Positions 75-42,386 of a stretch of DNA of 64,000 bases are shown here, piece by piece. The position numbers and the translations under genes are program-made. The stretch covers positions 704,001 through 768,000 of the forward strand of contig CAWFJP010000003.1 in the NCBI GenBank assembly GCA_963816145.1, written 5' to 3'. The notes beneath the pieces are model-generated. The model had not been told where the DNA came from. It saw only the letters and a list, made by a program, of their open reading frames with translations, and did not search any database. This stretch comes from an uncultured delta proteobacterium (GTDB lineage: Bacteria > Desulfobacterota > Binatia > UBA9968). Each line of letters starts with the position of its first letter. Position 1 is the stretch's first letter.

Positions 75-743
75 TTAATTGGGGACTCGGGATAACCTAT
101 GCTGCCGTCGACCGCTCTCCCAGGTCACATATAGCGTCGGATCACTGGGTGGTGGCAATTTGGAGCGGCTGCTCCGCTGCATATACATCTTCACCCAGTA
201 GTTGTAGAAATAGTCGAAATCCTGAGTCTCTTTTTGCTCGCGCCCGTCAGCAGTGACATAGTCGATCGCAACCCAGCGATCCTTCACGGTCACGCCAAGC
301 AAACGGCTGCCTTCACGCTTGTCGAGAAAACAACCGATACCGCGGAGAATCTGCGAGATGCTATAGGGATCCGGCATCTGGCTAGACTGCTTACGCCGTT
401 CGCGGCTTTCGGTTTCGGAGTCAAGGAGATCGGTAATCGAATATTGCAGCTGGCGCACGGCGGGCTGCTGGCATCTCTTCCCAGCTCCGCTAAAGCCAAA
501 AAACCGCCGCAGCAGGGACTGCGGCGCGGAATTTTGTTTGGCAACTTGCCCATGAATCGTGTAGACAGCGCCGTTCACCCTTAAGTCATACTCAGTGAAA
601 CCGGCCTGCTGCAGCAGCGCGCCCAATGTTCTCAGAATACGGTCATGAGGGAAAAACTTGGTGGATTCGGTCAAATCCTCAGTAGCCCCAGATGGAACGT
701 CGTATTGGGCGAGAGCAGAGTTTTGTGAATGAAATAGTTTCAT
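75..743 (-). CDS. Hypothetical protein (222 aa) with an apparent internal duplication
   Basis: Clean ORF with a CAGGAG RBS upstream. The two halves resemble each other (ILRTLGALLQQ...YDLRVNG vs ILRGIGCFLDK...LGVTVKD). No family recognised. Confidence 0.75.
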   Translation of the reverse strand: MKLFHSQNSALAQYDVPSGATEDLTESTKFFPHDRILRTLGALLQQAGFTEYDLRVNGAVYTIHGQVAKQNSAPQSLLRRFFGFSGAGKRCQQPAVRQLQYSITDLLDSETESRERRKQSSQMPDPYSISQILRGIGCFLDKREGSRLLGVTVKDRWVAIDYVTADGREQKETQDFDYFYNYWVKMYMQRSSRSKLPPPSDPTLYVTWESGRRQHRLSRVPN

Positions 744-782: not shown

Positions 783-875
783 ACTGGCAACCCGGCAGTC
801 AGACTCGGCTTCGATAAAACCTGGCTGATCCGTGGCTTTCCGCCCTCACCTCCGGGTGAGTTCGGCTTTTTCAGG
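783..875 (-). ncRNA. Cyclic dinucleotide riboswitch, c-di-GMP-I (GEMM) class
   Basis: Minus strand reads CTG-AAAAAG-CCGAAC-TCACC-CGGA-GGTGAG-GGCGGAAAGCCACGG...GACTGCCGGGTTGC-CAG. This matches the GEMM pattern: P2 hairpin, GCGGAAAGCC junction, 3' GCCGGGTTGCC. It ends about 40 nt upstream of the ORF start at 743. Confidence 0.75.
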
Positions 876-929
876 CGCGATGCTTCTTGGCGATAATTCG
901 TCGGACCAGGGTCCGTGATAAACATTATC

Positions 930-5700: not shown

Positions 5701-7301
5701 ATGGGCGGATTGGTCACCTGGGCGAACAGCTCTTTGAAATAGTTATAGAGCAGCTGCGGTTTGTCCGACAAAACCGCTAGCGGCGTATCCGTGCCCATGG
5801 AGCCCACCGGCTGGATGCTGTTTTGCGCCATGGGGCCGATATTGATGCGCAGGTCCTCGAAGTTGTAACCGAACGCCTGCAATCGTTGCAGCGTCGCCGC
5901 GTGATCGACCGCCGGCTCTTTATCCTTCATCTCCGGCAGATCGTTGAACCGGACCAAATTATCTTTGAGCCAATCGCCATAAGGCTGCGCCGCAGCCATC
6001 TGCTGCTTGATCTCTTCGTCGCTGATGATGCGCCCCTCGCTGGTGTCGACCAAAAACATCCGGCCCGGCTGCAACCGCCGTTTTTCCGACACGCGCTCCG
6101 GCGGCACGTCGAGCACGCCCACTTCCGAAGCCATGATAACGAGATCGTCCTTGGTCACGTAGTAACGCGAAGGCCGTAATCCATTGCGGTCGAGCACCGC
6201 GCCGACCACCGTGCCGTCGGTAAAAGCGATCGACGCCGGTCCATCCCAGGGTTCCATCAGGCAGCTGTGGAAATCGTAAAAGGCGCGCTTCTTGGCATCC
6301 ATGCTCTCGTGATTTTCCCAAGGCTCAGGGATCATCATCATCACGGCATGGGGCAAGGAACGGCCGCTCAAGGCCAAAAACTCCAAGCAGTTGTCGAACT
6401 TCGTCGAGTCGCTGCCGTCTTCCTGGATGATTGGAAACAATTTCTTCAAATCGTCGCCGAACATTTCCGACGCCAGCATGCCCTGGCGCGCATGCATCCA
6501 GTTCTCGTTGCCGCGCAGCGTGTTGATCTCGCCATTGTGAATCAAATACCGATAAGGATGCGCCCGCCCCCAACTCGGAAAGGTGTTGGTGCTGAATCGC
6601 GAGTGCACCAGCGCAATCGCCGATTCAACCTGGGGATCGGTGAGATCGGGGTAAAAGGTCGACACCTGGCGCGGCGTCAGCATGCCTTTATAGATCAAAG
6701 TCCGGCTCGATAGGCTCGGCACGTAGAACAAGTCCCCACCCGGCAGCCCTGCGTAGCGGATGGCATTTTCGGCGCGCCGCCGGATTACGTACAACTTGCG
6801 TTCGAACGCCAAGTCGTCCGTGATATCCGCACTGCGGCCTATGAACACTTGACGCACAAAGGGCTCGGTCGCTTTGGCGGTATCGCCCAGGTAAAGATTG
6901 TCCGTCGGCACTTTGCGCCAACCGAGACATTCCTGGCCCTCTTCTTTAACGATCGCCTCGATGATCTTCTCGAACTTCGGGCGCTGCTGGCGGTGATCGG
7001 GAAAGAAAATCATGCCGACACCATAGTCCCCCGGCTCCGGCAGTTTAAAGCCTAACCCGGCGCAGGCCTCTTTGAGAAAAACGTGCGGTACTTGCATCAG
7101 GATACCGGCGCCGTCACCGGTGTTCTCCTCGCAGCCGCAGGCACCGCGATGATCGAGGTTCTCCAATACCGTGAGCGCCTGCTCGACGATCTCGTGCGAT
7201 TTTTCGCCCTTGATATTGACGACGAAGCCGACACCGCAAGCATCATGCTCGAAGCGCGGATCGTAGAGACCCTGTTTTTCTGGCAATCCTGAAAGACTCA
7301 T
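2703..7301 (-). CDS. gltB: Glutamate synthase large (alpha) subunit
   Basis: 1532 aa. Ntn-Cys motif [28 protein letters not shown], the 3Fe-4S motif [13 protein letters not shown] and a C-terminal GXGXG domain. Confidence 0.98.
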
Positions 7302-7374
7302 AGGGTTATCCTTACAAACTTTATTTCCCTGCTTGTAATACTTTTAGCCGACATCGTGAAGCGCCCAACGAGTG

Positions 7375-7860
7375 CTATTTCTTCTTAGCGCTGGAGCTTT
7401 CGGCCAAACCGGCATCGAGGTCCAGCGCTTGGCTTTCCTTGGCCGTCGAGAGGACCACGTTGGTGACCGTGCGCGTCACCCCCTCGACCGAACGAATTTC
7501 ACCCAACAATTTTTCCAGCGAGCCGGTGTTGGCGGACTTCACTTTTAGAATGAAGCTCTCGTCACCGGTCACGTGATGACACTCCAAAACATCGCCATAA
7601 TGGAGCATCTGCCGGGCGAAGGCATCGATACCGCTCTGGTTGCCGATCGACACCCCGATGAAGGCGGTAATATCCTTGCCAACCTTTTTGCTGTCGATCA
7701 GCGCTTGGTAGCCTCGAATAACCCCGCTGGCTTCGAGCTTCTTTACCCGCTCCATAACGGCCGGCGCTGACAACTCCACCTCGTCGGCGATGTCGGCTAA
7801 ACGCTTGCGACCGTTATTTTGCAGAATATAAATGATTTTTAAATCTATTTGGTCAATCAA
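7375..7860 (-). CDS. Lrp/AsnC family transcriptional regulator
   Basis: N-terminal HTH (LADIADEVELSAPAVMERVKKLE) and RAM domain (ECHHVTGDESFILKV). TTG start. Co-oriented with gltBD. Confidence 0.93.
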   Translation of the reverse strand: MIDQIDLKIIYILQNNGRKRLADIADEVELSAPAVMERVKKLEASGVIRGYQALIDSKKVGKDITAFIGVSIGNQSGIDAFARQMLHYGDVLECHHVTGDESFILKVKSANTGSLEKLLGEIRSVEGVTRTVTNVVLSTAKESQALDLDAGLAESSSAKKK

Positions 7861-8286
7861 GTTAAAAATCTTAAGCCTTTGCAGTTAAAAACTTAAAGTT
7901 TTTATGCCATCGAGCAAAAAGCTTGTCAAGCAGCGGAGCGGAAAATTTGCTATTTGCCAAGAATTAACGGTGGAATTGCAGCCAGTTGCAACACGGGCAG
8001 GAGCTCAGCTGATCCGCCATGGCAGCGGAATTTCGACGGCTCTAAAATACGCAAGACCCCGGCAAGCGACCCAGATCTATGTAATGATTGGTCGACAGGT
8101 CATGTTGAGCTATTTTTTTTGTGGTTCCGAATAGCTGATTGCCGGTGTGCGGCTCCATCGATAGGCGGAAGGATTCCAACTCTCTACGCTCGATGAAACA
8201 CGTCATGCGGCCGTCGCCAGCAAGCGCCGGGCGCATCCACGCCATCACTTTTTTTTGAGTCGCCCGCTAGTCTCGCTAAGGTGGAC

Positions 8287-8952
8287 TCACATCAAGGGCA
8301 AGTCTACGGCCGCCGCATTCTCGCTATCGAGGGACCTGTTCAGCCACGGGCACTGTACGACCAGGCCAGGATTACCCTTGACCAAATGTTCGACAATCTG
8401 CCGCGCGCGCGGGTCGGTCGCGTCGGCATTGATCGCTTCCACCAGCACCCACGCCGCACCGATCAAATTGCCTTGTCCCTTGAGACTGATGCCGAGGTTG
8501 CGGAATGCGCTGGCCCTCGTCCAATCGATATCGATGGCTGCACGGCAGTACTTTTCCGCCTCAACATGTCGGTTAAGTTGGTTGAGACAAAAACCGATGT
8601 TGTTGTGCAACACATATTTGACCTTGCGCTTTCCCGGCCGCAGCGCCAACGCTGAATTGAAATGCTCCAGAGCAACCGCAAAGCGCTTTTCATCGGTCGC
8701 GATTTGGCCCAAAGCGAGATGGCAATGCGCCTGGTTCTCTGGGTTGCGGTTGGACTTGATGTAAGCATCGAGCAACTCGATGGCTTCGCTGATTTTATTG
8801 ATACCGCGGTAAAAACCGACGACGAAAAGCATCCAACGGAAGTATTCCTCCTCGGTGGTCGTGTTGTTTAGCCGTTGCAACAACAGACTCTCCGTATCGA
8901 GACTCTTATCTGGAACGTCGGCAGCTTCAGTCTTCTTTTCAGTGGTGCTCAT
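8287..8952 (-). CDS. Tetratricopeptide repeat protein
   Basis: TPR-like helices: HCHLALGQ, LHNNIGFCL, AFRNLGISL. Confidence 0.85.
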   Translation of the reverse strand: MSTTEKKTEAADVPDKSLDTESLLLQRLNNTTTEEEYFRWMLFVVGFYRGINKISEAIELLDAYIKSNRNPENQAHCHLALGQIATDEKRFAVALEHFNSALALRPGKRKVKYVLHNNIGFCLNQLNRHVEAEKYCRAAIDIDWTRASAFRNLGISLKGQGNLIGAAWVLVEAINADATDPRARQIVEHLVKGNPGLVVQCPWLNRSLDSENAAAVDLPLM

Positions 8953-10387: not shown

Positions 10388-11440
10388 TCAATCTTTGATT
10401 ATTTTAGTGACCGACCGCGTCGAACCACCCTCCGGCGTGCTCTGCCCCCAGACGTGGATATACTGGGACTGAGAGCCGTCGCCGCCGGCGACGATAACGA
10501 GAATATCTTCCGGCTTGTCGGTGACGGGAATGATACTGTCGCGGGTTAACTTCAGATCGGAGCGGCGCTTGACTCTTTGCGCGAAGGTCTCGTCAGGCAA
10601 GTCTTTCATACGGTAGGCGGCGCGCTCCCAGATAAACATTTGCACGTCCTTCTTGCTGAAGCCGTCACCGGCAATGATCTTGGCATGCTCCGGGCAAATA
10701 ACCATGATCGCTTCGGGACCGGACGGCCCCTCCATGCGTTGCGCGAAGTTAGTGAGAATGCCTTCGGCTTTGGAACTGTCGAGATCCGAAGCCCGCACCG
10801 ACGCGTCCGCGCTTATCACCGTTACAGTGCTATCGCTCGCCTTAAAGCCGCGCTCGACATGGAGCGGTTCCCACGGACTCACTTCTTCATTTTCGCCGAT
10901 ACAGATGGAATATTTTCCCGGCCACCCGAGCGTCGCCTTGCAGGTCGTGCCCGGAAGGGAACCGCCGATATTACGCTTGATCATCTGCACGAAACGGCCG
11001 ATGGTCGCGTTGGCGCGCCAGCCTTCACCGAGAGCGTTGGAGCCGCCGTTCACATTCAGCTGCTTGCGAACCGGACCGTTGATGATAGCCATCACCGCTG
11101 GCCCGCCGGTGGTGGCTTGGAGCGCGTAGAGATTGAGCTTGGGATCACAGAGCGCTTCCACGGTTGCGATCAAAGTCGGCATGTACTCGGGCTTGCATCC
11201 GGCCATGACGCCGTTGATGGCAATTTTCTCCACCGTGGCGGGCGCCCAGCGCGGCGGCACAGATCCGATAGCTTCATCAGGCTTGCGCTTGGTACCGGCG
11301 AGCATCTTCGCCACGCGCTCTTCGGTCGGAGGTATAACCGGTAGCCCATCGGACCAACCTTTTTCTACGAAGTATTCCTGCGCCTCCCAGATATCATCCG
11401 GAATTTCGATTCGCTCCGCCTGCGGTGTTGCCGTTGCCAT
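10388..11440 (-). CDS. Conserved hypothetical protein (GWSDGLPVIPPT family, typically beside or fused to UGSC proteins)
   Basis: Start trimmed to MATATPQ after a GAGGGG RBS; the longer ORF-track N-terminus is REP sequence. Motifs GWSDGLPVIPPT, EKIAINGVMAGCKPEY, RANATIGR, ENEEVSPWEPLH. Confidence 0.85.
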   Translation of the reverse strand: MATATPQAERIEIPDDIWEAQEYFVEKGWSDGLPVIPPTEERVAKMLAGTKRKPDEAIGSVPPRWAPATVEKIAINGVMAGCKPEYMPTLIATVEALCDPKLNLYALQATTGGPAVMAIINGPVRKQLNVNGGSNALGEGWRANATIGRFVQMIKRNIGGSLPGTTCKATLGWPGKYSICIGENEEVSPWEPLHVERGFKASDSTVTVISADASVRASDLDSSKAEGILTNFAQRMEGPSGPEAIMVICPEHAKIIAGDGFSKKDVQMFIWERAAYRMKDLPDETFAQRVKRRSDLKLTRDSIIPVTDKPEDILVIVAGGDGSQSQYIHVWGQSTPEGGSTRSVTKIIKD

Positions 11441-11501: not shown

Positions 11502-11583
11502 GTCATTCCCGCGAAGGCGGGAATCCAGTTTTTTGCCGTAGAACCCAAAGACGAAGATGAATACCGGCCTTCGCCGGTATGAC
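11502..11583. repeat. Inverted REP-like doublet, GTCATTCCCGCGAAGGCGGGAATCC type
   Basis: GTCATTCCCGCGAAGGCGGGAATCCAG ... AATACCGGCCTTCGCCGGTATGAC. Related copies at about 41068-41133 and 42312-42386. Confidence 0.85.
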
Positions 11584-11669: not shown

Positions 11670-12221
11670 TTAAGCGACCTTCGCCCGCGCCGCATTGGGC
11701 TCAAGCAGAATGTCTATTAACTGATCGAAAGCCGCGTCGGCTTTCTTATTGACTTCTTCAACCTTCACCGTGCCGATCGGATGTTGCACCACCAGCACCG
11801 GATGATCCGGCGCGCCGAAGGCTTCCTTCTCGGATTTCGCCAGCGCCGTGAAAGCGTTGGTGATGAAAGTCACGGCGAACTTCCCGCGTTTCTGGATTTC
11901 TAACGAGTCGTGGACACTCCACGACGTGCAAGAGCCTCAATCACCGAGGCCGGCTAAGACGAAATCCGTCTGCGCGGCCAGCTCCTCGATATATTGTTTT
12001 GGCGCGCCTTGCTGCGCCGTCAGCTTGCGCCGAGTAATCACCTTGGCCACGCCATAGCGTTCCTGCAACAGCGCAGCCAATCGTTCCGCCAGCTTGTCGG
12101 CGTTCGGCTTGCTGTTATCCAGCACCCCGATGATTTTCCCCTGCAAACTCGTAAAGCGCGCTACCGGGGCAATTTTCGCCGCCGACGACTTCGCTTTCCC
12201 CTCCGGGCTGAGAACAATCAT
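11670..12221 (-). CDS. UGSC-family selenoprotein (about 183 aa, Sec at UGA 11937-11939)
   Basis: ORFs 11937-12221 and 11670-11873 share a frame, and the only stop between them is one TGA. Read-through gives VLAGLGD-U-GSCTSWSVHDSLEIQKRGKFAVTFIT. Strong AGGAGGAGG RBS. Confidence 0.9.
11907..11925 (-). promoter_or_regulatory. Bacterial SECIS-like hairpin
   Basis: mRNA reads UGA-GGCUCUUGCAC (11 nt)-GUCGUGGA-GUG-UCCACGAC, a perfect 8-bp stem with a G-containing loop. Confidence 0.75.
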
Positions 12222-12330
12222 TTACTGTCCTCCTCCTATTAAATTTACCGCCACTGTAATCCACCGCTGCCACTCTGTCAAAACCACTTCGACCGAGATC
12301 CCTGGCGGCGTTGCAGACTCTATTTCCGGC

Positions 12331-16957: not shown

Positions 16958-17058
16958 AAACATCTAGTCTGATTCTCCCAAGCGGCATTGACAGAAATCG
17001 CGCCTGGGTGTTAAGCCAGCTGTGACTATCAAATTTTTTGCCGAGGAGAACGCTCGTG

Positions 17059-18100
17059 ATGGACGGAGTCGATATTATCGATGCCGATGGCCATGTCTTG
17101 GAGACCGACGCCGAATTGGAGCAATATTTTGACGGCGACTACAAAGGCCACCGCCGCACCGGCACCTTTTCGATCTTTCCTTCCCTCGACGGCTGGCCGC
17201 GCGGCTTTGTCCGCGGCTTGAACAAGGTCACCAAGGTCGATTGCAACAGCTGGGTCCAGTTTATCGAAGGCTCGAATATCTCCGCGGCGGTGCTCTATCC
17301 GACGGCCGCGCTTTCCGCCGGCCTCATTCAGGACCATGACTGGGCTTGCGTGGTCGCGCGCATGTATAACAATTGGCTCTATGATCGCTACTGCAAGATC
17401 GACCAGCGCTTGAAAGGTGTGGCACTTTTGCCGGTGCAAAATCCCCAGGAAGCCGCCAACGAATTGCGCCGTTGCGTCAAAGATTACGGCATGATCGCAG
17501 GATTATTGCCGGCGGTCACAAACCTGCACAAGGGCTACGGCCACCAGGATTTCCATCCTATCTATAAAGTCGCCCAAGAACTGAACGTTCCCCTCACCGT
17601 TCATGGCGCGGTCAGCGCCAACTTGGGCTTCGATTTTCTCCAGACCATGTCGATGATCCACACGCTGGAGCATCCGATCGCCCAGATGATCCAGCTCACC
17701 AGCGTCGTCCTCGACGGCGTGTTCGATCTGTATCCCCAAACTGCGAATCGGTTTCCTCGAAGCCGGCGCCGGCTGGATCCCCTATATGATGGACCGGCTG
17801 GATGAAAAGGATCACATCGACCGCAAGCGCAAGCACTTCCCGCTGAGCAAGAAGCCCAGCGACTACTTCAAGCGCGGCAATATCTACATTACCTGTGAGA
17901 CCGATGAAAAGACTCTGGACGTGGTCGTGCGCGAAATGGGCGAAGACTTCATGATGTACCCCACCGACTTCCCGCACGAACGCGAGGCCGGCGTGTTCGC
18001 CAAGGACATCCCGGAGTTTTGGGCGAGAAGAGATCTATCGGAACAGGTGAAACGAAAAGTTTTCAGCGATAACGCCAAACGGTTTTACGCGATCAGTTAG
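17059..18100 (+). pseudogene. Amidohydrolase split by a +1 frameshift (or sequencing error)
   Basis: IIDADGHV at the N-terminus. Removing one C from TATCCCCAAA (about 17734) restores YPKLRIGFLEAGAGWIPYMMDRLDE...PTDFPHE. Confidence 0.85.
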
Positions 18101-29123: not shown

Positions 29124-31524
29124 CTATTCCAACGCCCCATCCTGCTTAAGCGCAGCGATGGTCGCCGCGTCATAGCCCACCACATCGCGCAGCACCGCCT
29201 CGGTATCCTTACCGAGCACAGGGAATTCCCAGCGGCGCGTCAGTTTGGCGTTGGTAAAGTGCAGCGGAAAATTCGGCAAGACGACTTTGCCCAACCTGGG
29301 ATTATCCACTTCGACGACGAAACCTCGTTCTTTGAGCTGCGGGTCGTTGACCAAGTCCTCGCCGGTTTGCGCCACACCGCAGGGTATGCCAGCTTGCTGC
29401 AGTTGATCGCGCACCGCGAACGCATCCCTCGACTGCGTCCAGGCCGAGATAATCTTATCTAGCGCTTCCCGATGCCGCAGCCGCTCCGCGTTGGTCGCGA
29501 AGCGGGAGTCGCGGACGACGTCGCCGCCGAGAATGTTGGCGAGCGCCGACCATTGCGGCTCGGTCTCCGCGGCGATCGCGCACCAACGATCTTCGCCCTT
29601 GCACGGATAGCAGCCGTGCGGCGCTACCGAGAGCGACATGTTGCCGATGGGTTCGGGATTCCTGCCGCTCGACGCCGCTTCCATCAAATTGGCGCCGATC
29701 ATGAACGCCGTCGCTTCCGACTGCGCCAAATCGATGAACGCACCTTTCTTGTGCCGGTCGCGATAGAGCACGCCGGAAATGATGATGATCGCGCACAAAA
29801 CGCCGGAGACATAATCCGGGTAAACCAACTGCGCGCCGATGGGCGGGTTGGTGACACCCGGATGATTCCACATATAAGTCAGCCCGGTAAAAGCGGTGAT
29901 ATTCACACCCACCGTCGAAAAATGTCGCTTGGGGCCGGTGGTGCCGAGGCCGGGCATGCGCAGATTGACGATGTCGGGCTTCACCGCGCACAGTTGCTTG
30001 TAACCCAAACCGATGCGATCGACGACATCTACACTGTAGTTATCGAGCACGGCATCGGCCTTGGCGACCAAATCATGCAACACGCCCTGCCCTTTGGGAT
30101 GCTTCAAGTTAACTGTGAACGATCGCTTGTTGCGGTTGAATTCCAAAAAACGCGGCGACAGATTGGGATCTTCGCCGGTGCCAAAAAACCGAAACGGGTC
30201 CATGCCGCCTTTGCTCGACTCGATTTTCATGACATCGGCGCCAAGCTCGGCCAAAATCGTCGTGCCGTAGGGCCCGGCCAAGCACGTGATCGAAACTGAC
30301 GATACGCATGCCGTCGAGCGGGCCATTGCCGCTGCTTGAATCATTAGCTTTTGCCGGAGCCCCCGCTCTTCTCTCCCCCGTGACGGGGGAGATGTAAGAG
30401 GGGGATTGCCAGCTATCGAGCAGCGGCACACTGCCGACGACTGGACGGCTGCCGTCGATCATGAACGGCATCCCCGGCTGCTTGGCGGCACCAAAACCCG
30501 CGTGATTCACCGCTGTCATGAACCCCCGACCCTGCACATGCTCGTCGTTGGCAAAGCCCATCGGTGTATTCACCGGCACGCAAGGGATGCCCTTGTCCTG
30601 CAACAACTCGGTGATCTCCGCCATGGTGAATTTGCCGATAAACGCTTCCACCGCGGGATTCAACTCAGCGGCATGATCGCGCCGGTAGACATTGTTCAGC
30701 CAATCAGGAGCATCGAACGTCGCCGGATGGTCTTTCCAGATCGAAAGAAAAAGCTTCCAATGCTGGCGCGTGACGTAGAGATAAACGAAGCCGTCTTTGA
30801 CCGGGAAGATTTTCGCCGGCGCCACCGAGCCATGCTGGCTGCCGGCGCGCTTGAGGATCTGTTTTTCGTTCGCCCACAGGCGAATGATATGCTCGTGCGT
30901 CGCCAGGGTTTCCTGCATCGACGTGTCGATGTGATCGCCTTGACCGGTCTTTTCACGCCGGTAGAGCGCCGCCAGCACGCCGGCTGTGGCGAATAGACTG
31001 GCGAAGTAATAGGCCTGCGACTCGGGCGCTTTGCACGGCGCCGTCGACGGATCGCCGCACACATAGAGAATCCCGCTCTCCGCCAGCGCAACCAGATCGT
31101 TGTAAGCGAGATTTTTCTTCGGTCCGGTTTGACCGAAGCAAGTTATCGATGCCATGACGATGCCGGGATTGACGGCAGCGAGATCTTTGTAGCCCAACCC
31201 TTTCGCTGCCAACTCACCCGGCTGAAAACTTTCGATGACAACATCGGCGGATTCAACCATTTTGCGAAATGCCGCGCGGCCGGCGTCGTTGTCGAGATCG
31301 ATCACCTTGCTGTGCTTGCCCGCGTTCAAGTGCGCGAAGGTCGTGCTCAGCTTGGCGCCGTTGGCCGCAGTGATGAACGGCGCCAAGTTACGCACCGGAT
31401 CGCCGCCGGGCGGCTCGACCTTGATCACTTCCATGCCCAAGTCGGCAAGCATGCGGCCGCATAACTGGCCGCTCAAGCCGGTAAGATCCAACGCTCTGAA
31501 CCCTTTGAGAAATTCTCCGCTCAT
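29124..31524 (-). pseudogene. Two-domain CaiB/BaiF class III CoA-transferase with a single frameshift (or sequencing error)
   Basis: Domain 1 has LADLGMEVIKVEPPGGD. Domain 2 has LDGMRIVSFDHVL|AGPYGTTILAELGADV, restored by deleting one base at about 30280. Confidence 0.85.
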
Positions 31525-33799: not shown

Positions 33800-34534
33800 C
33801 TACAATCGCGCCCCATGGAATTTGGCAAACGCGATAGCATGGGCAGTAAGAGATGTAGCGAAGTTTCTAAAACTAATCTCATCGGCGGGTTCGGTATACT
33901 CGCCGCGTAGGCCCTTTGTCGGATCGGAGAGAATCAAACAAGCCGCATCATATAGCCGTTCCCGCACCAACTTCTGACAAAAGATCCGATAACGGTCCGC
34001 GTAAGATGACAAGCGGAATTCCGGAAAAACAGCGAAATGAGGTTCACGGATATCCACAGGGCTTCTGGAGCCTGGCGAATCTTCAAGCAGCATGAAATAG
34101 CCACACCACGGCCGCTGCGATAGCTTGAAGGCTCCTTCACGATAAGCGGTTTGAATATCGGTGGCGTTGCCGATCGCCTCTTCGGTTCGATTATTGAAGT
34201 TGTTGCCGAAGGAGCCCACCTGCGACTTGAACTCAACAACCGCCAGGAGAGCACCATCGACCACCGCGACAATGTCCCACTCCTTGGTAGGACGGAACCA
34301 GCCTGGTATCACAACTTGCTTCTTTTCTATATGCACATGCTGTTTGGAGATCCCGCTTTCGATCAGGAGATCAGCCATCAAAGCAATGAAGCCGTCGATT
34401 TGTTTGCCGCCGGTAACCGCACTTCGGCTGCCGTAGTCCTTCTTTCCAGTCGCGCGGCCTTGATTTTTCGCCTGTCGTCGCCGGGTACGCCAAAACTGAC
34501 TCACTGCAACTCTTAAGCGACTCTCCAACTCCAT
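33800..34534 (-). CDS. PaeR7I/XhoI-family type II restriction endonuclease
   Basis: RSAVTGGKQIDGF, PGWFRPTKEWD, EFKSQVGSFGNNFNNRTEEAIG, TAYREGAF. Confidence 0.88.
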   Translation of the reverse strand: MELESRLRVAVSQFWRTRRRQAKNQGRATGKKDYGSRSAVTGGKQIDGFIALMADLLIESGISKQHVHIEKKQVVIPGWFRPTKEWDIVAVVDGALLAVVEFKSQVGSFGNNFNNRTEEAIGNATDIQTAYREGAFKLSQRPWCGYFMLLEDSPGSRSPVDIREPHFAVFPEFRLSSYADRYRIFCQKLVRERLYDAACLILSDPTKGLRGEYTEPADEISFRNFATSLTAHAIAFAKFHGARL

Positions 34535-34550
34535 AACTGGAAGCCGGCAA

Positions 34551-35615
34551 CTAACGGTGGTCGACTATCGAAACCTGGGAAAAAAGATCCCGCGATTTTT
34601 CGACAATCGATGTGTAGGCAAGCTCGAAGTAGTGCGGATCGATCTCGACGCCAATACTATTTCGCCCGCAACGAGCCGCAGCGATGCTCGTCGACCCGGT
34701 TCCCATGAATGGATCGAGGATCGTATCGCCGGCGAAACTAAACATGCGAATTAACCGTTCCGCGAGGTCGACTGGATAGGGCGCTGGGTGCTGCTTGGTG
34801 GAAGCTCCTGGCAAATCATCCCAAGTGATGCGGAACCATTTTTGGTAGTTTTCTTCCGATATCACGCTCATGATACGTGTTGCCACCGACGGGCTGCGAT
34901 ATCCGCCCGGCTTACGTTGCATAAGAATGTATTCCACGTCGTTTTTGATGACGGCATTAGGTTCGTAAGGCTTACCTAGAAAACCGGAACCATTATCAAC
35001 TTCGTATGCTGCGTTGGCGATCTTTAGCCATAGGATCCCCTGAACATTATCGAAACCGAGCTTCCGGCAGCGATCTTGTATCGACGCGTGAAGAGGCACA
35101 ACGGTGTGTCTCCCGTTGTTTTTTCGCCGCGACAAGCAAACGTCACCGACAACCACGATCAGGCGTCCCCCCGGCACCAACGCGCGATGGCAGTGCGCCC
35201 AGACCTTATCGAGCTCAGTGAGAAATTTCTCGTAATCTTCAACGTAGCCTAGTTGGCCGGTCGTCTTGCGGTATTCTTTCAAAGTCCAATAGGGCGGCGA
35301 GCAAATGACGAGATGGACGCATGACGGCGCGAGAAATTCCATGCTTGTTGCGTCACTTAGATATACATCGTGCCTCGTCGGCACCCGTCGCAATGCGTCG
35401 TTGATAAGTCGAGTGAGCTTCGGGTCTTTGGCGATTCGCGGTAGCGCTGTTTGATGATCGGCGCCTACGTTTCCTACCTCCGGTGGAACATAAACGCTCA
35501 CATCGATGTTTGCCGGCTGAGGTGGGGTTTTGGGCTCCACTAAGTCCATAGCATGAGCCACACTGCGGGCTTTTCGCTGCTTTCGCTCAACAACTGGATC
35601 TGTTTGTGGCTTCAT
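34551..35615 (-). CDS. Beta-class N4/N6 DNA methyltransferase
   Basis: Motif IV SPPY precedes HPAPYP and motif I ILDPFMGTGS. Adjacent to the restriction endonuclease. Confidence 0.92.
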   Translation of the reverse strand: MKPQTDPVVERKQRKARSVAHAMDLVEPKTPPQPANIDVSVYVPPEVGNVGADHQTALPRIAKDPKLTRLINDALRRVPTRHDVYLSDATSMEFLAPSCVHLVICSPPYWTLKEYRKTTGQLGYVEDYEKFLTELDKVWAHCHRALVPGGRLIVVVGDVCLSRRKNNGRHTVVPLHASIQDRCRKLGFDNVQGILWLKIANAAYEVDNGSGFLGKPYEPNAVIKNDVEYILMQRKPGGYRSPSVATRIMSVISEENYQKWFRITWDDLPGASTKQHPAPYPVDLAERLIRMFSFAGDTILDPFMGTGSTSIAAARCGRNSIGVEIDPHYFELAYTSIVEKSRDLFSQVSIVDHR

Positions 35616-42311: not shown

Positions 42312-42386
42312 GTCATTCCCGTGAAAACGGGAATCCAGGCCCGAGTTCATCGGCACAACCTAGATTCCCGCCTGCGCGGGAATGAC
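42312..42386. repeat. REP-like doublet between convergent genes
   Basis: GTCATTCCCGTGAAAACGGGAATCCAG ... TAGATTCCCGCCTGCGCGGGAATGAC. Confidence 0.85.

What the first reader, a model, noticed from the sequence alone, without database searches (positions are those of the whole stretch)
11670..12221. Hidden selenoprotein: a UGSC motif split by UGA, with a well-placed SECIS-like stem
Seen: two in-frame ORF fragments are joined by a single TGA, giving GLGD-U-GSC-TSW, and a perfect 8-bp hairpin starts 11 nt after the UGA. Established: bacterial SECIS elements lie just 3' of the UGA (about 11 nt in E. coli fdhF), and UGSC is a predicted selenoprotein family with no known function. Inference: the context U-G-S-C-T...LEIQKRGKFAVTFIT resembles the U-x-x-C region of GrdB/PrdB reductase selenoproteins, which hints at reductive C-heteroatom cleavage.
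Basis: partly seen in the sequence, partly recalled or inferred. Interest (0 to 1): 0.78.

Follow-up and report, generated by a model that had tools for sequence, protein, structure and literature searches.

The report
UGSC selenoprotein gene and its partner
This is a genuine selenocysteine-encoding gene of the already catalogued UGSC family, whose function is unknown, and it sits beside a conserved unnamed partner gene with which it probably forms a redox enzyme.

Summary
On the minus strand, 12221..11670 is one 183-codon frame with a single TGA at 11939..11937, giving GLGD-U-GSC-TSW. A perfect 8-bp hairpin (11925..11907) starts 11 nt after it.

The protein passes the curated cut-offs of NCBIfam NF041046 and Pfam PF24696, both named UGSC. 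This family has been in print since 2007-2008 with unknown function, so the gene is already known in kind.

Comparison supports Sec decoding. 67 of 78 related loci have TGA at this column and 11 have Cys codons. In TGA forms the hairpin codons have zero synonymous variation; in Cys forms they vary. The genome's Sec machinery could not be checked.

The GrdB/PrdB idea has no HMM support and no Grd/Prd partner genes. Only a by-eye local motif likeness was seen.

Additional results:
- The AlphaFold model is flavodoxin-like, not the thioredoxin-like fold suggested in print.
- A 350-aa neighbour with no Pfam family or PDB relative lies beside UGSC in 76 of 77 assessable cases and is sometimes fused to it.
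- A thioredoxin-reductase-like gene adjoins the pair in six loci.

The parts
11670..12221 (-). UGSC-family (seleno)protein gene: 183 codons plus TAA, with one in-frame TGA.
   Evidence: Translation. NF041046 scores 137 bits against a cut-off of 125. PF24696 scores 156.6 bits. The closest relatives are 92% and 89% identical, in L001 and L002.
11937..11939 (-). Sec codon (UGA, codon 95) of the U-G-S-C motif.
   Evidence: The same column is TGA in 67 and TGC/TGT in 11 of the 78 related loci that cover it. It is Cys in 144 of 150 full-length representatives.
11907..11925 (-). SECIS-type hairpin: 8-bp stem and GUG loop, starting 11 nt after the UGA. It is encoded by the codons for T-S-W-S-V-H-D.
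   Evidence: It folds at -11.1 kcal/mol. In 69 distinct TGA forms, 61 keep 8 of 8 pairs and 8 keep 7 of 8, and the loop is always GU-N. Compensatory G-C to A-U (4 sequences) and G-C to C-G (2 sequences) changes occur. It meets the bSECIS constraints quoted.
12228..12236 (-). Shine-Dalgarno-like GGAGGAGGA, 6 nt upstream of the ATG at 12221.
   Evidence: Read directly from the sequence.
10388..11440 (-). Partner gene X (350 aa). It corresponds to the 'Unknown_1' domain of Zhang & Gladyshev 2008. It has an invariant Cys82 in the NAVMAGC motif.
   Evidence: No Pfam or NCBIfam family. An X homologue lies within 2.5 kb on the same strand for 76 of 77 assessable UGSC copies. UGSC-X fusions exist. The motif matches Fig. 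S1A of PMC2398784. The AlphaFold model has pTM 0.88 and gives no PDB match at E<=0.001.
11505..11526 (+). Palindromic repeat in the 229-bp spacer between UGSC and X. It is terminator-like only on the opposite strand.
   Evidence: Two further copies lie at 42315 and 42362.

Best explanation
The gene encodes a true member of the UGSC (seleno)protein family. Codon 95 (UGA) is read as selenocysteine because SelB would bind the hairpin 11 nt downstream, which is built from the codons for T-S-W-S-V-H-D.

The protein is a small (beta-alpha)5 flavodoxin-like domain. The U-x-x-C pair sits at the start of helix 3. Beside it are two other conserved loops, LDNSKPN after strand 1 and HPxG after strand 5, on the same edge of the sheet.

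It most likely cycles between selenol/thiol and selenenylsulfide. It most likely works as the redox subunit of a two-protein enzyme with the adjacent partner X, which has one invariant Cys. In some lineages it would be re-reduced by a thioredoxin-reductase-like flavoprotein encoded next door. The substrate would be some organic acid or CoA ester.

Shown: family membership, Sec/Cys alternation, RNA-level constraint on the hairpin, and the genetic coupling to X. Inferred: Sec insertion in this organism, the physical UGSC-X contact, the electron path and the substrate class.
For: Identity:
- HMM scores are above both curated cut-offs.
- The GOS UGSC sequences share the IDNSKPN, GD-U-GSC and HPI motifs.

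Sec decoding:
- TGA is at the column in 67 of 78 loci, from MAGs labelled Binatia, delta proteobacteria, Rokubacteria/Methylomirabilota, Chloroflexi, Betaproteobacteria, Acidimicrobiales and Dormiibacterota. Cys codons are in 11, from Sphingomonadales and related Pseudomonadota, haloarchaea and one Dehalococcoidia.
- The reading frame stays conserved beyond the TGA (query residues 1-183 matched).
- The hairpin codons TCG TGG AGT RTC CAC are invariant at synonymous sites in 69 distinct TGA forms but vary in 9 Cys forms.
- Where Trp UGG becomes Cys UGC (L052, L067, L076), the pairing Val codon changes synonymously from GUC to GUG.
- All four quoted bSECIS constraints are met.
- TGA also ends 17 of 48 ordinary genes in the window, so it is not globally reassigned.

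Fold:
- pLDDT 92.2 and pTM 0.88, with strand 87-93 followed by helix 96-111.
- Foldseek's best hits are flavodoxin-like domains, GH3 C-terminal domains and FtsZ.

Partner:
- Adjacency in 76 of 77 assessable copies.
- Paired duplicates U1-X1-U2-X2 in relatives.
- 18 of 25 long representatives carry an X region after the UGSC domain.
- X has an invariant Cys82.

Electron donor:
- A TrxR-like gene (TIGR01292, 301 bits, below the 343 cut-off) lies directly upstream in 5 loci.
- An annotated trxB lies directly downstream in a Roseovarius plasmid.
Against: - No selA, selB, selD or tRNA-Sec is in the 64-kb window, and no tRNA-Sec is in the fetched flanks. The source genome could not be searched.
- The single-sequence fold is not significant.
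- Most of the stem never varies, so the RNA evidence is conservation more than covariation. Only 2 of 8 pairs show two-sided changes.
- The loci are the 80 most similar of 335, so the TGA:Cys ratio is biased toward the query's kind.
- The TrxR-like neighbour occurs in only 6 of the 82 loci examined (the window, L001-L079, L080 and L081).
- Nothing shows that UGSC and X touch.
- The Foldseek matches are weak (TMq 0.54 at most).
- The context genes (amidohydrolase_2, NMT1-type binding protein, CoA-transferase, enoyl-CoA hydratase, acyl-CoA dehydrogenase) differ between lineages and do not fix a substrate.
Confidence: 0.8

Rival explanations
1. UGSC is a cut-down homologue of the Sec-bearing part of GrdB/PrdB and performs reductive C-N or C-heteroatom cleavage. 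X would take the role of the substrate-activating subunit (PrdA/GrdE-like).
For: - The U-x-x-C spacing is the same as listed for PrdB (Table 2).
- By eye, 3 of 3 displayed GOS 'Proline reductase' sequences share the UGSC consensus layout: strand, U, C at +3, E at +15, then G/K at +18, P/S at +20, T-V at +21/+22, then a strand.
- Both are selenoproteins encoded beside a second subunit (for Grd/Prd; here).
- A thioredoxin-system reductant fits both.
Against: - No GrdB/PrdB model hit at E<=1, nor at E<=10 for any of 51 members.
- X has no Pfam family at all, so it shows no Gly_reductase-type match.
- No GrdA, GrdC or GrdD genes nearby.
- UGSC is 183 aa, against 26 kDa for PrdB; GrdB is larger still (recalled).
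- Carriers include groups I recall as aerobes.
- The likeness was judged by eye on three sequences.
Confidence: 0.15
2. UGSC is a stand-alone thioredoxin-fold thiol-disulfide oxidoreductase, as suggested in print, and the neighbour X is irrelevant.
For: [quoted passage not shown] PMC13188914 lists it among proteins with a Trx-like fold. The Atlas auto-names X-like clusters 'thioredoxin family'.
Against: - The confident model is an all-parallel (beta-alpha)5 fold.
- None of the Foldseek matches shown is a thioredoxin.
- X is adjacent in 76 of 77 assessable copies and is sometimes fused.
Confidence: 0.07
3. The TGA is a real stop: the gene is split, is a pseudogene, or carries a sequencing error.
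For: No Sec machinery is seen in the window. Gene callers in public data do truncate here: 12 of 97 database hits end just before the column.
Against: - The same TGA recurs in 67 loci across several phyla.
- The frame beyond it is open and conserved.
- The hairpin shows RNA-level conservation.
Confidence: 0.03
4. TGA is read as Trp or Gly by an altered genetic code.
For: 10 of 97 database homologues show W at the column.
Against: - TGA ends 17 of 48 family-supported ORFs in the window.
- The W entries come from contigs of about 0.9-1.3 kb and fit a code-4 gene call.
- Full-length relatives have Cys at this column, never Trp.
Confidence: 0.01

Closest known systems
UGSC-containing protein family (NCBIfam NF041046, Pfam PF24696; Zhang & Gladyshev 2007-2008)
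   Same: Scores exceed the curated cut-offs. It has the same U-G-S-C motif, size, and IDNSKPN and HPxG motifs, and a SECIS directly after the UGA.
   Different: Nothing sets it apart as a member. What I add for the family is a flavodoxin-like rather than Trx-like model, a near-obligate adjacent partner, and a SECIS fixed at synonymous sites.
GrdB / PrdB selenoprotein B subunits of glycine and D-proline reductase (Pfam PF07355)
   Same: The U-x-x-C spacing is shared. A local strand-U-x-x-C-helix-G-x-P-T-V-strand layout was seen by eye. Both have a partner subunit encoded alongside, and a thioredoxin-type reductant is plausible for both.
   Different: No HMM-level similarity, a much smaller protein, no GrdA/C/D/E or PrdA genes, and occurrence in groups I recall as aerobes.
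Thioredoxin / thioredoxin reductase redox relays
   Same: A two-residue redox motif sits at a helix N-terminus. A TrxB-like flavoprotein is encoded next to UGSC in six loci.
   Different: The predicted fold is not the thioredoxin fold. The first redox residue is Sec in most relatives fetched.
'Unknown_1' domain fused to UGSC (Fig. S1A of PMC2398784)
   Same: The neighbour X carries the same A-[IV]-N-[AG]-V-M-A-G-C-[KR]-P-E-Y-M-P ... V-N-G-P block with the conserved Cys.
   Different: Here it is a separate gene 229 bp downstream, not a fusion. [quoted passage not shown] Here at least 6909 database proteins match X.

Membership tests
UGSC family (NF041046 / PF24696) | Score above the curated cut-off of the family model. 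| tested here: met
   NF041046: 137 bits against a cut-off of 125. PF24696: 156.6 bits against a cut-off of 25, covering profile positions 2-171 of 172.
UGSC family (NF041046 / PF24696) | U or C, then G-S-C, at the conserved column. | tested here: met
   GD-U95-GSC-T. Among the 151 aligned rows (query, stored with C for U, plus 150 representatives), the column is C in 145, S in 4, G in 1 and gapped in 1. The second Cys column is C in 136 and S in 12.
Bacterial selenoprotein gene | An in-frame UGA aligned with Cys in homologues, with a conserved frame beyond it. | tested here: met
   67 loci have TGA and 11 have Cys codons, of the 78 that cover the column. Matches span query residues 1-183.
Bacterial selenoprotein gene | bSECIS model: a 3-9 nt loop, a 4-16 bp stem, G in the first two loop positions, 16-37 nt from the UGA to the loop, and MFE <= -7.5 kcal/mol (PMC13188914, Fig. 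2 legend). | tested here: met
   3-nt loop GUG (or A-GUG-U), 8 bp, 19 nt from the UGA to the loop, and -11.1 kcal/mol. Conserved in 69 distinct sequences.
Bacterial selenoprotein gene | selA, selB, selC (tRNA-Sec) and selD in the same genome. | not testable with these tools
   None in the 64-kb window (0 tRNAs; Pfam scan).
Bacterial selenoprotein gene | Selenium actually incorporated. | not testable with these tools
   This needs 75Se labelling or mass spectrometry.
GrdB/PrdB (PF07355) | Sequence match to the family model. | tested here: not met
   No such hit at E<=1 in Pfam or NCBIfam. 0 of 51 UGSC members hit it at E<=10. HMMER filters drop most matches above about 0.1, so remote homology is not excluded.
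GrdB/PrdB (PF07355) | U-x-x-C redox motif. | tested here: met
   U95-G-S-C98. PrdB is listed as UxxC, and GrdB as UxxCxxC.
GrdB/PrdB (PF07355) | Encoded with Grd or Prd partners (GrdA, GrdC/D, GrdE or PrdA). | tested here: not met
   None among 57 window ORFs or the 27 proteins scanned, which included representatives of 25 neighbour clusters.
Thioredoxin-fold oxidoreductases (literature suggestion) | Thioredoxin fold. | tested here: not met
   The model is five parallel beta-alpha units with pLDDT 92.2. The Foldseek matches shown are flavodoxin-like or other alpha/beta domains. This is a model, not an experimental structure.

The most novel reading that the evidence does not exclude
UGSC, its partner X and, where present, a TrxB-like flavoprotein form a widespread, uncharacterised selenol/thiol-dependent reductase that works in soil and water bacteria and in archaea. 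In this reading the selenoprotein subunit is a minimal relative of the GrdB/PrdB Sec domain. X has at least 6909 database members, no Pfam family and no PDB relative by sequence or predicted fold, and would be a new catalytic fold that holds the substrate at its invariant Cys.
Probability: 0.25. Interest if true: 0.7.

Novelty: already known. Interest (0 to 1): 0.35.

Why it matters
The gene itself adds nothing new in kind. UGSC was one of the most abundant predicted selenoprotein families in ocean metagenomes, with 255 Sec forms in GOS, and NCBI already names it.

Its value is as an entry point to an unsolved function. The family has about 4369 representative clusters and no known activity. 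The data here give three testable handles:
- an almost obligatory partner protein with no known fold;
- a likely thioredoxin-reductase-type electron donor;
- Cys-form carriers in named isolates, such as Sphingobium wenxiniae, Natrinema and Roseovarius, in which knock-outs and assays may be possible.

The SECIS is also a clean example of an RNA signal that freezes seven codons of a protein across phyla.

Tried and rejected
It was closed for two natural Cys homologues.
- A word-index search for longer, fused relatives found none. The later exhaustive profile search did find fusions, so one search was a false negative.
- Rfam at gathering thresholds reported nothing at the hairpin.
- Single-sequence folding gave no significance.
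- Sequence searches of PDB found nothing meaningful for UGSC (best E 0.75) or for X (0 hits; best E 0.14). Foldseek for X gave 0 matches at E<=0.001, with class I fumarate hydratase on top at TM about 0.2.
- tblastn found no second UGSC or X copy in the window.
- A scan for other TGA-bridged frames listed 37 further candidates. None looked like a coding continuation by eye, and they were not tested by homology.
- A motif scan found no PrdB-like U/C-P-[VAIT]-C pattern in any held DNA.
- No tRNA-Sec lies in the window or in L001-L079.
- A profile-profile test against GrdB/PrdB was not run because no such sequences could be obtained.

Full report
**What is there**

On the minus strand a 94-codon ORF (12221..11937) ends in TGA. 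The same frame runs on for 88 codons to TAA at 11672..11670. Reading TGA as U gives a 183-residue protein with ...FVLAGLGD-U95-GSC-TSWSVHDSLEIQKRGKFAVTFIT....

A GGAGGAGGA box lies 6 nt before the ATG. Close homologues start with the same MIVLSPEG.

Eleven nucleotides after the UGA begins GUCGUGGA-GUG-UCCACGAC (11925..11907), a perfect 8-bp hairpin.

**Is it more than chance?**

Not on this sequence alone. The 66-nt region folds with z = -1.07, and 25 of 200 shuffles do as well. 22 of 1924 TGA triplets in the window have a perfect 8-bp hairpin at a SECIS-compatible distance. The case rests on comparison.

**Family**

The protein scores 137 bits on NCBIfam NF041046 'UGSC family (seleno)protein' (cut-off 125) and 156.6 bits on Pfam PF24696 'UGSC'.

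The family is in print. PMC1976440 (passages) calls it a selenoprotein of unknown function. PMC2398784 (passages and Table 2) counts 255 Sec and 21 Cys forms in GOS, suggests a Trx-like fold and notes a fusion to an 'Unknown_1' domain. The 2022 and 2026 reviews list it, and the 2026 review says the functions of nearly all such selenoproteins remain largely uncharacterised.

A whole-word search for 'UGSC' found 17 papers. Nine of them also hold the word selenoprotein. I opened four of the nine, and in those I saw no function or gene-neighbourhood analysis.

PGAP-annotated plasmid records already carry the name 'UGSC family (seleno)protein'.

**Sec or Cys at the column**

Of 97 database hits:
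- 56 have Cys at the column.
- 10 have W. These are short contigs, consistent with a code-4 gene call.
- 12 end just before the column.
- 19 are other fragments or frame-shifted calls.

A scan of one genome per species matched 463 stretches. 335 encoded a relative, and the best 80 gave 79 loci. A strict motif search found 82 copies: 81 in 72 loci, plus the window. Of these, 71 have TGA and 11 have TGC or TGT.

Six of the seven remaining loci have TGA with variant motifs, and L073 is cut off by the contig end. That gives 67 TGA loci and 11 Cys loci of the 78 that cover the column.

The Cys forms are in Sphingomonadales and related Pseudomonadota, haloarchaea and one Dehalococcoidia. The TGA forms are in MAGs labelled Binatia, delta proteobacteria, Rokubacteria/Methylomirabilota, Chloroflexi, Betaproteobacteria, Acidimicrobiales and Dormiibacterota. 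These are the loci most similar to a Sec-form query, so the ratio is biased.

Among the best 150 of 4369 profile-search representatives, which are full-length gene calls and hence Cys forms by construction, the column is C in 144, S in 4, G in 1 and gapped in 1.

**The SECIS**

In 69 distinct TGA-form sequences the codons TCG TGG AGT RTC CAC (+5 to +9) have 0 bits of third-position entropy. Most flanking codons show 0.8-1.8 bits. In 9 distinct Cys forms, four of these five codons show 0.99-1.84 bits; the fifth is the invariant Trp codon.

61 of the 69 keep all 8 pairs and 8 keep 7. The loop is GUG in 45, GUA in 23 and GUU in 1. Cys forms keep only 4-7 pairs and mostly have GC-N loops.

On a 69-row alignment that includes the variant motifs, 97.8% of 552 cells pair. 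With the 3' partners slid by one to three columns, 19-49% pair. Two pairs show two-sided changes:
- The outer pair changes from G-C to A-U in 4 sequences.
- An inner pair changes from G-C to C-G in 2 distinct sequences (L052, which L067 matches exactly over this stretch, and L076). There Trp UGG becomes Cys UGC, and the pairing Val codon changes synonymously from GUC to GUG.

Three pairs never vary, so the evidence is mainly extreme conservation.

The element meets the four constraints of the bacterial SECIS model quoted in PMC13188914, Fig. 2 legend:
- a 3-nt loop;
- an 8-bp stem;
- GU at the start of the loop, fitting N1-G-[G|U]-N-N2 as A-G-U-G-U;
- 19 nt from the UGA to the loop, and -11.1 kcal/mol.

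That a minimal fdhF stem-loop works 11 nt from the UGA is recalled, not checked.

TGA ends 17 of 48 family-supported ORFs in the window, so there is no global reassignment.

The window has no tRNA, and no SelA, SelB or SelD domain appeared among the 57 ORFs scanned.

**Fold**

The AlphaFold2 model, built on a 51-sequence alignment, has pLDDT 92.2 and pTM 0.88. It consists of five beta-alpha units.

U95 follows strand 87-93 and starts helix 96-111. The other conserved motifs follow strand 30-35 (D35, N36, K38, P39, N40) and strand 142-145 (H147, P148). Because all three follow strand C-termini of a parallel sheet, I infer that they line one pocket.

Foldseek against PDB gives 15 matches at E<=0.001. 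These include GH3 C-terminal domains, FtsZ, and flavodoxin-like domains of flavodiiron proteins, with azoreductases just below that threshold. TMq is 0.54 at most, and no thioredoxin appears in the rows shown. The printed 'Trx-like fold' is therefore not supported by the model.

**The partner**

The next gene, 11440..10388, encodes a 350-aa protein that I call X.

X has no recognised relatives:
- no Pfam or NCBIfam family;
- no PDB relative by sequence;
- a confident model (pLDDT 86, pTM 0.88) with 0 Foldseek matches at E<=0.001.

Yet at least 6909 database proteins match it, and none of the 120 listed carries a Pfam domain.

An X homologue lies within 2.5 kb on the same strand for 76 of 77 assessable UGSC copies: 73 downstream and 3 upstream. 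Five more copies sit at contig ends, and one (L075) has none.

Relatives such as L001, L006, L007, L018 and L024 carry two modules in tandem, U1-X1-U2-X2. Each X is about 45% identical to the other. The window has only the first module.

Among the top 150 representatives, 25 are 250 aa or longer. 18 of those carry an X-like region after the UGSC domain, and 14 of the 18 are 528-591 aa.

X's block AINGVMAGCKPEYMP...NGP matches the 'Unknown_1' alignment in Fig. S1A of PMC2398784. So the fusion was known; the near-universal adjacency and the size of the X family are what I add.

X has one invariant Cys (C82) among 43 invariant columns in 39 sequences.

**Electron donor and context**

A thioredoxin-reductase-like protein (TIGR01292, 301-302 bits, below the 343 cut-off) is encoded directly upstream of UGSC in L033, L057, L060, L068 and L074. 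In a Roseovarius plasmid the order is X, UGSC (Cys form), trxB.

Other neighbours vary by lineage:
- amidohydrolase_2, cupin and an NMT1-type binding protein here and in Binatia-like MAGs;
- CoA-transferase III, enoyl-CoA hydratase and acyl-CoA dehydrogenase after the second module;
- AMP-ligase, SDR and MFS in sphingomonads;
- DUF6282 in haloarchaea.

This points loosely to organic-acid or CoA-ester catabolism and no further.

**GrdB/PrdB**

No HMM support exists. No Grd or Prd partner genes were found.

However, the three GOS 'Proline reductase' sequences displayed from supplement 3 of PMC2398784 read ...VVLLVPN-U-PVC-HQTVSLVARHLEANKIPTVIAGS... and similar. The UGSC consensus reads ...DVVLTGSAD-C/U-GSC-TSWSVHDTIQLExxGxPTVVATT. 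Both have C at +3, E at +15, G/K at +18, P/S at +20 and T-V at +21/+22, flanked by hydrophobic strands.

This is a by-eye lead. I could not bring those sequences into a profile comparison. It keeps distant homology of the Sec-bearing unit alive, but not the functional inference.

**Verdict**

This is a genuine, ordinary member of a known selenoprotein family, correctly spotted from raw sequence.
- Confidence that it is a UGSC-family gene with a functional SECIS: about 0.9.
- That it works with X as a redox pair: about 0.6.
- That a TrxB-like enzyme feeds it: about 0.4.
- That it is GrdB/PrdB-like in chemistry: about 0.15.

Noticed in passing
window 10388-11440 (-): The partner protein X belongs to a very large family: at least 6909 database proteins match it. 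It has no Pfam or NCBIfam model and no PDB relative by sequence. Its confident predicted fold finds nothing in PDB.
   Followed up: partly
L001, L004, L006, L007, L010, L018, L019, L024, L077: Relatives carry a second TGA-form UGSC paralogue (ITGLGA-U-GSC) 1.8-4 kb downstream. Where the flank allows it to be seen, this copy has its own X paralogue. The window lacks this second module.
   Followed up: partly
L052, L067, L076: Chloroflexia and Ktedonobacteraceae forms read D-U-GSCSSCSVYD. Their hairpin keeps pairing through a Trp-to-Cys codon change matched by a synonymous Val codon change.
   Followed up: yes
L080 (Acidovorax sp. T1 plasmid p2-T1), locus 6968-8500: A conjugative IncP plasmid carries a TGA-form UGSC followed by X, next to IS1071 and IS91-like transposases. 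The record's gene table lists only a 97-codon 'hypothetical protein' up to the TGA.
   Followed up: partly
window 11505-11526, 42315-42336, 42362-42383: A palindromic repeat, ATTCCCGCGAAGGCGGGAATCC, occurs in three copies with up to 3 mismatches; 0 are expected by chance. One copy sits in the UGSC-X spacer, and two form an inverted pair near 42.3 kb.
   Followed up: no
window 783-876 (-): A c-di-GMP-I riboswitch aptamer (47.4 bits, gathering score 35) lies just upstream of the 222-aa ORF 743..75, which has no Pfam family.
   Followed up: no
window 33800-35615 (-): An XhoI-type restriction endonuclease and an N6/N4 DNA methylase lie side by side, inside a run of CoA-metabolism genes.
   Followed up: no
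window, whole: Several families are heavily expanded by paralogy: 7 ORFs with Amidohydro_2, 8 TctC-type receptors, 6 NMT1-type binding proteins, 5 enoyl-CoA hydratases and 4 acyl-CoA dehydrogenases.
   Followed up: no
window 17038-17805 (+) and 29124-31524 (-): A 255-aa ORF matches only positions 48-171 of the 289-position Amidohydro_2 profile, so it may be a fragment. Two CoA-transferase III ORFs overlap by about 320 nt as listed, probably because the listed start is too far upstream.
   Followed up: no
database proteins P0002-P0004, P0006-P0009, P0020, P0021, P0023: Public gene calls show Trp at the Sec column, presumably because short contigs were translated with a code that reads TGA as Trp. 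Such entries would hide the Sec form in surveys.
   Followed up: partly
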